51,026 nt of DNA, taken from positions 1-51,026 of IMG/VR virus record IMGVR_UViG_2671180890_000005; one strand, written 5' to 3'. Position 1 is the stretch's first letter; each line of letters starts with the position of its first letter. This document shows, piece after piece, positions 15,001-18,000 of the stretch. The position numbers were made by a program. Source of the DNA: a virus (Duplodnaviria; Heunggongvirae; Uroviricota; Caudoviricetes).

Positions 15001-18000
15001 GCCAGTATTTGCTGGCGCGTTTAACTATTGTTTTACGCGCCATCTCTTCCCAGAATGTTTTCCACGGTCCATTCTTTGCCTTGCTCGTTGCTTCCACAGC
15101 TTTAATTTCTGCCAGACTCATTTCTTCAGTCAGGTAGTCACCATCTGCTGTTTTAACCGTGCAATAACCTCCAACAATAGAGCCTCGCTCACCAAATGCG
15201 TTGTATTTGTGGGTTGGTGCTGAATCAAGGCCATTTGATTCATAGATGTCGTTTGAGTACACCAGTTTGCATTGCCCCCACTTAATTGATCCTGTCGATT
15301 GCGCAAGATGAAGTAATCCCATGTAACTGATATCAAGGCACACCATGCCGTCGCGCGGAACCAGATAAGCCAGTTTGCTGGCCGGGTTTAAGGTGATGCC
15401 GATCGCCGCAACATTGATGATGGCGTTCTGTGCGCTGGTTGGATTTGCCAGTGCCGTTTTAGCCAGGTAATCGTTTTTCTGGAAATACTGAATTGCAAAC
15501 TGGCTTTCCTTAGCCCATGTCACCGTCTGTTCAGTCAATGCTCCGCAGAATAACTGCTCCTGCTGTTTAACGAATTCAACGATATTGCTCATGCAGCTTC
15601 TCCATAAATATGTCTGCGTTTGAATATTGCGAAGGCATATTCAGCCTTAACTCTTTCGGTTATTGCATCCCAGAACCATTCAGCGGCTTTTTCCTGATAG
15701 TTACAGTCATCATCTTCCAGCCAGTCGATAGCGTCCTTAGTGTGTTCATCTGGTTTATATGAGCGAAGCATTTCGCTTATTGGGTCGCAACGTTTGCAGA
15801 GGCGATCAACTTCACTGTTGATTCGTTCGTAATCATCATCGGTAAAACTTGCGATTATTTGCGATATTTCACGCTTATCATTCAGAGTCAGAATCATCAT
15901 CTTTCTCCTGTTCTTTGTGCTGATTGAGCATTTTGTTCATCTGACGAATGAATTCTTCGTCTGACCAGTTGTCTGTAAAACTCATGGGCGGCCTTGTTGT
16001 TTCAAAATATCCCAAAGCTTTTCGAGCAAGCTTTTCATTCTTGGTTGTTTAAAGTCTGCTCCGGTTAAAATGTTTTTTCGTGAATGCTGTACCGATAAAA
16101 TCGGGTTGAAAGGGCGAACCGATGCCGCCCCTGCAATAGCGAACTGTTGCATAGGATGCTCCTTCTGTTTGATTGCATAACGAAAACGCCTCGAGTGAAG
16201 CGTTATTGGTATGCATATAAAAAAGCCCTCACACTGGAGGGCAAAGAAGATTTCCAATAATCAGAACAAGTCGGCTCCTGTTTAGTTACGAGCGACATTG
16301 CTCCGTGTATTCACTCGTTGGAATGAATACACAGTGCTTATTCGTCATGCATTTCAGGTATTTCTTCGTATTCAACACCCCACATGTTTGTTACCCAGGA
16401 TAGTTTTTCGTACCGTTGACAAGATTCAGACCACATAAACTGACTTCCATGCGGGCGAGTTTCGATATCTGTTATCTCTCCCGGCCGAACAAAACTGGTA
16501 TTCGACTTCGTTATTTTTACTTTCATTACTCATCCCCAAGAGCTTTGCTGATTGCTGACTGTGCTTTCGATACTTCATCAGGATAATGGTCATTCCAGTT
16601 TTGCTTGTATGCCTTGTTTAGCATTGCTTGCAGGGCATTTAAAAGGTCTGGTGCTGCCGCTATTAGATTGGCATCTTCAATGCATAGAACTTCCTCACAG
16701 ATTGCAATATACGAACGCCAGCCTGCGCCATTTTCAAGTGAGTCTGCCTGGATGATTTTAATCTCATCGCCATCCATCATTATTTCCCACTTACCTTCAG
16801 TACCTTTAAATTCCATGTTCGCCTCTGTTGTTTATGCCAAAAATAAAGGCCGACTATGCGGCCTATTTGATTGAGCGAATCGTTGTCCACGATACTGAAT
16901 GCTCAGCTGTAAGCTTGAACTTACGCTCGCATTCATAGCATGTATGCTCTTCTTCGCAGGCGTCGTATGATTCATCGGTGGATATTTCAGCCTTACACCA
17001 TGGGCAGCGAGCCTCATCTCTGCGCCAAAAATCCAGCTCATCATATTCATCGTCAGGAATAATTCTTGCCTCAGCTGCTGCTAGGCGTTCCTGATTAATT
17101 TTCTCTTGGCAATCATTGCATCGCCATCCACCACGACATCCCCAGACAGCACCCATTCCAGCTATGGTTTGTGACGTTGACGCGTGCTCTCTATCAATTC
17201 CGCAATCAACACAAACATCATGCTTTTCGCATCTGCAATACGCCCAGTCCTGAGGAGAACCATTGCAGTGATCGCAACCCTCAACCCAATGCCAAACCCC
17301 ATCAATTTCCTTTGAGTACCAGCTTTTTACTGGAGGAGTTAGCTCGAAGTCGCATTCTTGTATAAGCTTCCCGCCTTTGACTATGCGCTCACCAAAGAGC
17401 TGAGATGCTCCTGCTCTTGAGCGCTTTATTCCTGGAAAAAGGCGAAGGTCATTAATTACGCCCCTGATAATCTCTCCATCAATTCTATTGCTCATTCCAT
17501 CACCTCAAATAAGTGGCTTGCTGCCTAATTTCATTTTCTGGCGACCAACACAAGTCACACCCATTTCACTGCGTGGCTTGCTGTACCATGTGCGCTGATT
17601 CTTGCGCTCAATACGTTGCAGGTTGCTTTCAATCTGTTCGTGGTATTCAGCCAGCACCGTAAGGTCTATCGGATTTAGTGCGCTTTCTACTCGTGATTTC
17701 GGTTTGCGATTCAGCGAGAGAATAGGGCGGTTAACTGGCTTTGCGCTTACCCCAACCAACAGGGGATTTGCTGCTTTCCATTGAGCCTGTTTCTCTGCGC
17801 GACGTTCGCGGCGGCGTGTTTGTGCATCCATCTGGATTCTCCTGTCAGTTAGCTTTGGTGATTGGATGGCCGGCGCTGAACCCCGGCTTACTGGTTAGAG
17901 CGCCCGCACTACCAGTGACGCTGTCTTGAGGCGCAGATTGGTTACTGCTTGCCATGAGCGCTGTTTATACATTGGTCGAGCATCAGCCTGCTCATTCATC

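What the first reader, a model, noticed from the sequence alone, without database searches (positions are those of the whole stretch)
16863..17495. Cysteine-rich multi-CxxC protein immediately downstream of N
A 210-aa product with at least six CxxC-type pairs sits in the first position of the pL operon after N, where lambda has ral and related early functions. A multi-zinc-finger early protein could be a DNA mimic or an anti-defence factor.
Basis: inference. Interest (0 to 1): 0.45.

Follow-up and report, generated by a model that had tools for sequence, protein, structure and literature searches.

The report
Uncharacterised three-zinc phage early protein
A lambda-like prophage of E. coli carries, directly after its N gene in a swappable slot where sister phages carry the anti-restriction gene ral, a conserved zinc-binding protein with no characterised relative; it is a sensible but untested candidate for a factor that disarms a host function.

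Summary
Window 16863..17495 (minus strand) is a real 210-aa gene that starts 9 nt after the stop codon of lambda-type N. It has 15 Cys and five CxxC motifs plus one CxxH. dN/dS against relatives is 0.04-0.15.

Across 46 relatives (30% mean identity), 11 Cys and 1 His are invariant, enough for three zinc sites. Naturally shortened relatives suggest the sites bind in sequence (LIM-like), not cross-braced as in a RING. The domain order is:
- an N-terminal beta domain;
- two tandem zinc fingers;
- a long helix;
- an acidic linker;
- a C-terminal zinc ribbon.

The gene is an exchangeable cassette between N and a terminator-like hairpin. Sister E. coli prophages with the same flanks carry Ral, an 83-aa unknown protein, or that protein plus Nmad5. 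Only 1 of 5426 complete E. coli genomes has this gene. Relatives sit in early-left operons of Enterobacteriaceae prophages, Pantoea phages and a Bacillus phage.

My best guess is a non-enzymatic, protein-binding early accessory or counter-defence factor (confidence about 0.4). The DNA-mimic, RING E3, Ral/Lar and nuclease readings are not supported.

The parts
16863..17495 (-). Cysteine-rich gene, 210 aa plus stop codon. It is the whole coding sequence of the three-zinc protein.
   Evidence: ORF list and sequence. PHROG 27543 at E 2.7e-29. 23 close and 234 cluster-representative homologues. dN/dS 0.04-0.15.
17280..17495 (-). N-terminal all-beta domain (aa 1-72, eight strands). Conserved residues are D16, R18, L19, R27, G29, F34, W68 and W70.
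17106..17279 (-). Tandem zinc-finger module (aa 73-130). Site A is C74, C77, C89, H92. Site B is C95, C98, C126, C129. C126/C129 sit at the start of the long helix 127-144.
17010..17057 (-). Conserved acidic linker (aa 147-162, net charge -6 here; family median -5).
   Evidence: Charge analysis on A2. The linker is also conserved in ribbon-only relatives.
16866..17009 (-). C-terminal zinc ribbon (aa 163-210). Site C is C164, C167, C186, C189, with P165 invariant. This is the core module of the family.
17501..17506 (-). Shine-Dalgarno GAGGTG, 5 nt before the ATG, overlapping the N stop codon.
   Evidence: Sequence. The left cassette junction lies at 17499/17500.
16837..16864 (-). Terminator-like hairpin AGGCCG-CATAGT-CGGCCT followed by TTATTTTT, overlapping the gene's stop codon by two bases (16863-16864) (tL1-like position). 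The right cassette junction (16851/16852) lies inside it.
   Evidence: Scan. RNA fold -11.4 kcal/mol, z -2.6. Junction mapping. The same type of hairpin follows the alternative cassette in L046.
17505..17831 (-). Lambda-type antitermination gene N, the upstream neighbour in the pL operon.
   Evidence: PHROG 271. RefSeq annotation of near-identical E. coli prophages.
18030..18044 (-). nutL boxB hairpin GCCCTGAAGAAGGGC. It marks the N-antiterminated pL transcript.
   Evidence: Sequence. Flagged as a hairpin. Its identity with lambda boxB rests on my knowledge of the lambda sequence.
16526..16816 (-). Conserved 96-aa gene (PHROG 1273, unknown function) that forms the right flank of the exchangeable slot.
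   Evidence: The same gene follows Ral, the 83-aa protein and Nmad5 in sister prophages.

Best explanation
The gene encodes a compact, non-enzymatic zinc-scaffold protein of about 24 kDa that binds three structural zinc ions. The inferred sites are:
- site A: C74, C77, C89, H92;
- site B: C95, C98, C126, C129;
- site C: C164, C167, C186, C189.

The domain order is an N-terminal beta domain, two sequential LIM-like zinc fingers, a long helix, an acidic linker and an acidic C-terminal zinc ribbon.

The gene is an exchangeable accessory cassette. It sits between N and the first terminator-like hairpin of the pL operon. It should therefore be transcribed together with N at the very start of infection or induction, and be silent in the lysogen.

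I think the most likely role is stoichiometric binding to a host protein to neutralise it. The target would most plausibly be a defence or restriction component, as for Ral, which occupies the same slot in sister phages. The conserved acidic ribbon would be the core binding module, and the N-terminal modules would be add-ons.

What is shown: gene reality, ligand conservation, modular architecture, cassette boundaries and slot alternatives.
What is inferred: zinc binding, site topology, immediate-early expression, protein binding and the counter-defence role.
For: - The gene is real and constrained. dN/dS is 0.04-0.15 and there are 234 cluster representatives.
- Twelve ligands are invariant at 30% mean identity.
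- The AF2 model is confident, with pLDDT 92.2 and pTM 0.77.
- There is a nested architecture series: NABC 72, -ABC 32, --BC 15, ---C 21. Complete short proteins keep only C95/C98/C126/C129 plus the ribbon. This indicates sequential zinc sites and a ribbon core.
- The cassette spans exactly 17499..16852.
- The same slot holds Ral, an 83-aa unknown protein, or that protein plus Nmad5.
- N homology in about 1700 E. coli genomes typically ends at the N stop codon.
- A terminator-like hairpin follows the gene, and the scan found no sigma-70-like promoter between N and the gene.
- Relatives consistently lie in early-left operons between the repressor or N and the recombination and integrase genes. 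Some lie near Ral, Nmad5, Acb2/Tad1-like or DNA methyltransferase genes.
- There is no PADLOC hit, so it does not look like a known defence gene.
Against: - There is no functional data and no homology to any known anti-defence protein.
- Position in an accessory slot is only guilt by association. Such slots also hold genes with other roles.
- Strong purifying selection and conservation across genera are less typical of fast-evolving counter-defence genes.
- The terminator-like hairpin follows the gene in only 7 of 44 related loci. Immediate-early timing is therefore a property of this phage group, not of the family.
- The hairpin is modest, with a 6-bp stem.
- The LysW match did not recur with the better model.
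- The zinc-site topology is inferred from truncated relatives, not read from coordinates.
Confidence: 0.4

Rival explanations
1. It targets a host function that is not a defence system. Examples are inhibition of cell division, replication, a protease or recombination, as Kil, CIII or Gam do. The binding-scaffold mechanism would be the same but the target would differ.
For: pL operons carry several such small host-directed proteins. Kil, CIII and anti-RecBCD genes are annotated in the related prophage. The family is strongly conserved across genera, which fits a conserved housekeeping target. The protein-interaction-type zinc modules fit equally well.
Against: The slot alternatives include Ral, a restriction alleviator. 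The gene is rare and patchy, present in 1 of 5426 E. coli genomes. That pattern is typical of accessory arms-race cargo rather than a generally useful takeover function.
Confidence: 0.2
2. It is a nucleic-acid-binding regulator of phage development. It would be a zinc-finger or zinc-ribbon protein acting on DNA or RNA, comparable to Mu Com, P2 Ogr or lambda Ea8.5.
For: Zinc ribbons often bind nucleic acids. The profile gives weak hits to Elf1, TFIIB and TFIIE-type ribbons (E 0.003-0.1). The N-domain has conserved basic residues R18, R27 and R102. The gene is co-transcribed with the regulator N.
Against: All those hits are below family thresholds and generic to CPxC...CxxC ribbons. The protein is acidic overall, with pI 5.1, and the ribbon and linker are strongly acidic. 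The gene is a dispensable, swappable cassette, which is unlike a core regulator. No neighbouring gene is consistently present that could be a regulatory target or partner.
Confidence: 0.15
3. It specifically modulates DNA methylation or Type I restriction in the manner of Ral or Lar. That is, it would alleviate restriction by stimulating or partnering a methyltransferase.
For: It occupies the same slot as Ral. Ral (4 Cys) and Lar/RalR (zinc-ribbon family) are both small Cys-rich proteins. Six of 46 relatives hit Pfam Lar_restr_allev weakly, with a best E of 2e-4. A small SAM-methyltransferase lies immediately downstream in three related loci. One chimera joins a cytosine-methyltransferase-like N-terminus to the zinc module. 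A Bacillus phage relative is labelled 'DNA methylase'.
Against: The Lar hits are below the Pfam cut-off, and hhalign against RalR gives 27% probability. The protein has no similarity to Ral, and a Ral homologue sits right next to this gene in L024, which argues against redundancy. Methyltransferases are common in these phage regions anyway. The 'DNA methylase' label is on a 194-aa protein with no methyltransferase domain. I judged the methyltransferase-like N-terminus of P0098 by eye only, and Pfam gave no hit.
Confidence: 0.12
4. It is a DNA mimic of the Ocr or ArdA kind.
Against: Overall pI is 5.1 and net charge is -11 over 210 aa. The N-terminal domain and finger modules are near neutral. 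No fold match to known mimics was found in PDB or BFVD. The fold is a zinc scaffold, not an elongated helical or beta mimic.
Confidence: 0.05
5. It is a RING-type, E3-like zinc finger that interferes with bacterial ubiquitin-like defence pathways, or it is a His-Me/HNH-type nuclease.
Against: Complete short relatives keep C95/C98/C126/C129 alone, which is incompatible with a cross-brace. The better model matches LIM domains rather than RING. No Pfam RING, Prok-RING or HNH model reaches its threshold. No E1, E2 or Ubl genes were seen nearby. H92 is absent from the short forms, so it is not a universal catalytic residue.
Confidence: 0.04

Closest known systems
Lambda Ral (antirestriction Ral family)
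   Same: It occupies the same exchangeable slot directly downstream of N in E. coli lambdoid prophages with identical flanks. It is a small early pL product. Ral also carries a cluster of four Cys.
   Different: There is no sequence similarity. Ral is 66 aa and this protein is 210 aa with three zinc sites. A Ral homologue co-occurs next to this gene in L024. Ral's function, alleviation of Type I restriction and enhancement of modification (Loenen & Murray 1986, cited in PMC12373910), has not been shown for this protein.
LIM domain (tandem zinc fingers, eukaryotic protein-interaction module)
RING finger (C3HC4)
   Different: Cross-brace ligation is contradicted by natural truncations that keep ligands 5-8 alone. 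No RING or Prok-RING HMM match was found, and there is no ubiquitin-system context.
Lar/RalR (Pfam PF14354) and generic zinc ribbons (LysW, Elf1, TFIIB types)
   Different: Pfam scores are below the gathering thresholds. hhalign against RalR gives 27% probability. The LysW match was not reproduced with the second model. The resemblance is at the level of the generic ribbon fold.
PHROG 27543 and PHROG 6504 (phage protein families of unknown function)
   Same: This is true sequence membership. The whole protein matches PHROG 27543 (E 2.7e-29, aa 50-205), and the C-terminal ribbon matches PHROG 6504 (E 7e-5).
   Different: These families carry no functional annotation, so membership says nothing about mechanism.

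Membership tests
PHROG 27543 (unknown function) | Significant match to the family HMM over most of its length | tested here: met
   E 2.7e-29, protein residues 50-205 against profile positions 39-182 of 197.
RING finger (C3HC4) | Eight zinc ligands with C-x2-C-x(9-39)-C-x(1-3)-H-x(2-3)-C-x2-C-x(4-48)-C-x2-C spacing | tested here: met
   C74-x2-C77-x11-C89-x2-H92-x2-C95-x2-C98-x27-C126-x2-C129, invariant in 46 sequences. The RING formula itself is from my own knowledge.
RING finger (C3HC4) | Cross-brace ligation (ligands 1,2,5,6 and 3,4,7,8) | tested here: not met
   Complete short relatives (for example P0105, P0142, P0152, P0155, P0157, P0162) retain only ligands 5-8 plus the ribbon. Ligands 5-8 therefore form an autonomous site. 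This is indirect evidence, because the model coordinates could not be inspected.
RING finger (C3HC4) | Match to RING or Prok-RING profile HMMs | tested here: not met
   No RING model aligns to the finger module (aa 73-130). The only zf-C3HC4_3 hit is at E 0.64 on residues 160-172, in the ribbon. The Prok-RING_1 hits on ribbon-only relatives are below the cut-off.
LIM domain | Two sequential zinc sites joined by a two-residue spacer | tested here: met
   The H92-x2-C95 spacer is invariant. The sequential topology is inferred from truncated relatives.
LIM domain | Consensus loop lengths and ligand order (C-x2-C-x16-23-H-x2-C ... C-x2-C-x16-21-C-x2-C/H/D), and a Pfam LIM match | tested here: not met
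   The first loop is 11 residues, the ligand order is C,C,C,H and the second loop is 27 residues. LIM is not among the Pfam hits.
LIM domain | Structural superposition with solved LIM domains | tested here: inconclusive
Ral family (antirestriction) | Sequence similarity to Ral | tested here: not met
   tblastn with Ral against all loci carrying this gene finds only a separate Ral gene in L024. NCBIfam gives no hit.
Ral family (antirestriction) | Alleviation of Type I restriction and enhancement of modification | not testable with these tools
   This needs plating of unmodified phage on EcoKI+ hosts with and without the gene.
Lar/RalR (Pfam PF14354) | Score above the Pfam gathering threshold, or profile similarity to RalR | tested here: not met
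   Six of 46 relatives hit weakly, with a best E of 2e-4, below the 28.6-bit cut-off. hhalign probability is 27%.
DNA-mimic anti-restriction proteins (Ocr, ArdA) | Strongly acidic surface over the whole protein that imitates DNA, or a fold match to known mimics | tested here: not met
   pI 5.08 and net charge -11, with the acidity confined to aa 147-210. No fold match was found in PDB or BFVD.
HNH / His-Me finger nucleases | HNH profile match with catalytic His, Asn and His between two CxxC pairs | tested here: not met
   No HNH hit in Pfam. There is no conserved Asn or second His. H92 is absent from complete short relatives.
Known anti-phage defence proteins (PADLOC) | Match to any PADLOC model | tested here: not met
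   0 families at E<=0.1.

The most novel reading that the evidence does not exclude
The protein founds a new, widespread family of phage zinc-scaffold inhibitors. An acidic zinc-ribbon core (about 60 aa) has been extended stepwise with one or two LIM-like fingers and a beta domain. In this lambda-type phage the full-length form is expressed with N as an immediate-early product and neutralises a host immune system. It would act through a mechanism unrelated to Ral, Ocr or ArdA. That would make LIM-like tandem zinc fingers a bona fide viral counter-defence module in bacteria.
Probability: 0.3. Interest if true: 0.65.

Novelty: new variant of a known kind. Interest (0 to 1): 0.4.

Why it matters
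If the protein is a counter-defence factor, it would add a structurally new family to the short list of phage immune inhibitors. It has three zinc sites, no solved relative, and a modular series of truncated forms. It would also give a handle for finding the host system it targets.

The mapping of the N-to-terminator slot is useful in its own right. The slot is a precise cassette-exchange site whose right junction lies inside the terminator hairpin. Anything found there in the roughly 1700 E. coli genomes that carry this N gene is a candidate early accessory or anti-defence gene.

If the protein instead proves to be a host-takeover or regulatory factor, the value is more modest: annotation of PHROG 27543 and 6504 and of several hundred metagenomic relatives.

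Tried and rejected
- Pfam, NCBIfam and PADLOC on the protein gave nothing significant.
- A Pfam scan of 46 relatives and 10 ribbon-only relatives gave only sub-threshold, generic zinc-ribbon or treble-clef hits, including Lar, Elf1, TFIIB, IBR and Prok-RING.
- A PDB sequence profile search gave only weak ribbon and ZZ hits.
- hhalign against RalR gave 27% probability, so I rejected Lar membership.
- I first read the finger module as a RING cross-brace from its spacing. I rejected that after finding complete relatives that keep only ligands 5-8.
- I looked for a fixed gene partner in 44 loci and found none.
- I looked for informative domain fusions. I found only small proteins, one chimera with a methyltransferase-like N-terminus and one contig-edge chimera.
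- The terminator-like hairpin is not a family-wide feature. It follows the gene in only 7 of 44 loci.
- Literature searches found no study of this protein. I searched by accession, accessory regions, zinc-finger anti-defence, prokaryotic RING and LIM-like terms.
- The accessory-gene screen of Silas et al. lists the 83-aa alternative cassette (UDP0060) but not this protein.
- An alignment-based scan of viral contigs with A2 failed because the alignment had no conserved stretch. A1 was used instead.
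Full report
**Observation**

A GAGGTG ribosome-binding site lies 5 nt upstream of the ATG and overlaps the stop codon of the preceding gene. 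That gene, 17505..17831(-), is a lambda-type N. It matches PHROG 271 at E 9e-27. A 99.4%-identical stretch in E. coli RefSeq genomes is annotated as antitermination protein N. The lambda nutL boxB sequence lies upstream at 18030..18044.

The product has 15 Cys (7.1%; binomial P 3e-8). It has five CxxC motifs, against 0.99 expected in shuffles, and 125 of 100,000 shuffles reach five. The sixth 'pair' is C89-x2-H92.

**The gene is real and constrained**

The word-indexed search of the 5.8-billion-protein set gave 23 homologues, all unnamed. They come from Enterobacter, Citrobacter, Cedecea, Lelliottia and a Pantoea phage. The exhaustive profile search gave 234 cluster representatives at E<=1e-3. 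Against relatives at 67-93% nucleotide identity, dN/dS is 0.04-0.15.

In 46 sequences with 30% mean identity, the invariant columns are F34, W68, W70, P165 and twelve potential zinc ligands. The ligands are C74, C77, C89, H92, C95, C98, C126, C129, C164, C167, C186 and C189. The other Cys of the window protein (48, 87, 120, 180) are not conserved.

**Structure**

With the 22-sequence alignment, AlphaFold2 gave pLDDT 81.9. With the 46-sequence alignment it gave pLDDT 92.2 and pTM 0.77. Both models show the same layout:
- eight beta strands (aa 8-72);
- a zinc-rich region with little regular secondary structure (aa 73-126);
- a long helix (aa 127-144);
- an acidic linker with a short helix;
- a beta-ribbon at the C-terminus.

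Pfam, NCBIfam and PADLOC give nothing significant. The only family memberships are PHROG 27543 and, for the ribbon, PHROG 6504. Both are of unknown function.

**Zinc-site topology**

The spacing C-x2-C-x11-C-x2-H-x2-C-x2-C-x27-C-x2-C fits both the RING (cross-brace) formula and a LIM-like sequential arrangement. I could not read the model coordinates, so I used natural variation instead.

I aligned 171 family proteins to the family HMM. They fall into a nested series:
- full length, NABC: 72 proteins, median 209 aa;
- without the beta domain, -ABC: 32 proteins, about 135 aa;
- with only ligands 5-8 plus the ribbon, --BC: 15 proteins, about 123 aa;
- ribbon only, ---C: 21 proteins, about 60-90 aa.

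Several --BC proteins are clearly complete. They start with Met and have unrelated, Cys-free N-terminal extensions; examples are P0149, P0157 and P0162. C95/C98/C126/C129 therefore form a self-sufficient site. That means sequential ligation (A: 74, 77, 89, 92; B: 95, 98, 126, 129; C: 164, 167, 186, 189) and argues against a RING cross-brace. It agrees with LIM domains being the top hits to the better model.

The series also shows that the acidic linker plus ribbon is the ancestral core of the family. A profile of that core finds 98 further small proteins (57-148 aa), none fused to a known domain.

**Genomic setting**

I compared the window with an E. coli prophage that has the same N (L046). 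Homology runs to window 17500, which covers the N stop codon and the ribosome-binding site. It resumes at 16851, inside the 3' arm of a hairpin followed by TTATTTTT. The cassette is therefore 17499..16852: the ORF plus the 5' arm of the terminator-like hairpin. The alternative cassette in L046 brings its own 5' arm and forms a comparable hairpin.

In prophages with the same flanks, the slot holds one of the following:
- an 83-aa unknown protein, which is listed as an uncharacterised accessory protein, UDP0060, in the supplement of Silas et al. 2023;
- Ral;
- the 83-aa protein plus an Nmad5-family protein.

This N is present in about 1716 of 5426 complete E. coli genomes, and homology usually ends at its stop codon. 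The Cys-rich gene is present in only one of those genomes.

The gene lies upstream of the first terminator-like element after N, and the scan found no promoter in between. It should therefore be made together with N before antitermination and be repressed in the lysogen. This is an inference. It also applies only to this phage group, because the hairpin follows the gene in just 7 of 44 related loci.

**Related loci**

In 41 IMG/VR loci, 7 genome loci and several metagenome contigs, the gene always lies in the early-left operon. In close relatives it sits after the repressor and an N-like gene. In distant relatives it sits between the recombination genes and the integrase. In Pantoea phage LIET2 it lies among replication and nuclease genes.

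The gene has no constant neighbour. Occasional neighbours are:
- a Ral homologue directly downstream (L024) and an Nmad5 homologue (L025);
- a small SAM-methyltransferase in three loci;
- an Acb2/Tad1-hairpin protein and a cytosine methyltransferase a few genes away.

These associations fit an accessory or counter-defence neighbourhood, but they prove nothing. The co-occurrence with Ral argues that the protein is not a simple functional replacement for Ral.

**Mechanism**

I saw no plausible catalytic motif in the conserved columns. The conserved residues are zinc ligands, aromatic core residues and a few Arg and Gly. The closest structural analogues, LIM and the LysW ribbon, are protein-interaction modules.

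The protein is moderately acidic (pI 5.1, net charge -11). The acidity is concentrated in the conserved linker (net -6) and the ribbon (family median -6). That is too little for an Ocr-type DNA mimic. It is compatible with docking onto a basic surface of a target protein.

I therefore commit to a stoichiometric protein-binding early accessory factor, most likely directed at a host defence or restriction function, with confidence about 0.4. The rivals and their confidences are:
- a non-defence host target: 0.2;
- a nucleic-acid-binding regulator: 0.15;
- a Ral/Lar-like modulator of methylation: 0.12;
- a DNA mimic: 0.05;
- a RING E3-like protein or a nuclease: 0.04.

**Comparison and novelty**

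The protein is not a member of the Ral, Lar, RING, LIM, HNH or any PADLOC family by the tests run here. It is a member of PHROG 27543. It works, at most, like the small early anti-restriction proteins that share its slot.

No paper in the searchable library mentions it. I rate it as a new variant of a known kind: an uncharacterised family within the known class of lambdoid early accessory cassettes. Interest is moderate (0.4). It has a clean, confident and structurally unmatched fold and a well-defined slot, but no functional evidence.

Noticed in passing
window 18222..18698 (-): An ORF lies directly downstream of the CI repressor gene and upstream of pL, in the position where lambda has rexAB. 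It has a signal-peptide-like start ([20 protein letters not shown], from an internal Met). It matches PHROG 2651 (unknown function) and has no PADLOC hit. It is probably a lysogen-expressed exported moron.
   Followed up: partly
window 1..6000: This stretch is 100% identical to E. coli chromosomes. The annotated features are a DUF927 protein, a P2-family major capsid protein and an Icd-like division inhibitor, which together look like a P4-like satellite. It lies next to the lambdoid prophage, whose probable integrase ORF (407 aa) is at 8954..10177(-). This shows that the host is E. coli.
   Followed up: partly
window 16837..16864 (-) and L046 2245..2285: The right-hand recombination junction of the exchangeable slot lies inside the terminator-like hairpin. 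The 3' arm plus T-tract (GGCCTTTATTTTTGG) is shared, and each alternative cassette supplies its own complementary 5' arm.
   Followed up: yes
L049 1242..1871 (protein P0098); L050 1..795 (P0132): These are two chimeric relatives. P0098 joins an N-terminus resembling a cytosine-5 DNA methyltransferase (judged by eye; no Pfam hit) to the zinc module. P0132 joins the beta domain to an unrelated C-terminus at a contig edge. They may reflect recombination with neighbouring methyltransferase genes, or they may be assembly artefacts.
   Followed up: partly
L046 2005..2256; L048 1705..1956: The 83-aa alternative occupant of the slot (MEFHESAIC...) is itself uncharacterised. It appears as UDP0060 (AFM76313) in the supplement of Silas et al. 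2023, with no function assigned.
   Followed up: partly
window 14224..15592 (-): The recombination module is RecT (PHROG 148) plus a Mu Gam-like end-protection protein (PHROG 253), rather than lambda Exo/Bet/Gam.
   Followed up: no
window 20285..21232 (+), about 20700..20870: The 315-aa ORF at 20285..21232 (possibly the replication initiator, judging only by its position next to the cI/cro region; no family search was run on it) contains a His/Ala-rich repeat (AHEAAQTTAH... repeated). This may reflect origin iterons embedded in the gene, as in lambda O.
   Followed up: no
L003 4995..5579 (Bacillus phage vB_Bacillus_1020A Gp_83): A 194-aa relative (29% identity) is annotated 'DNA methylase' in GenBank. 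It is a member of this zinc-protein family and has no methyltransferase domain, so the label is probably an annotation error.
   Followed up: partly
window 16225..16242 (-): A second terminator-like hairpin (GCCCTCCAGTGTGAGGGC followed by TTTTTT) lies about 100 nt downstream of the 62-aa gene in the pL operon.
   Followed up: no
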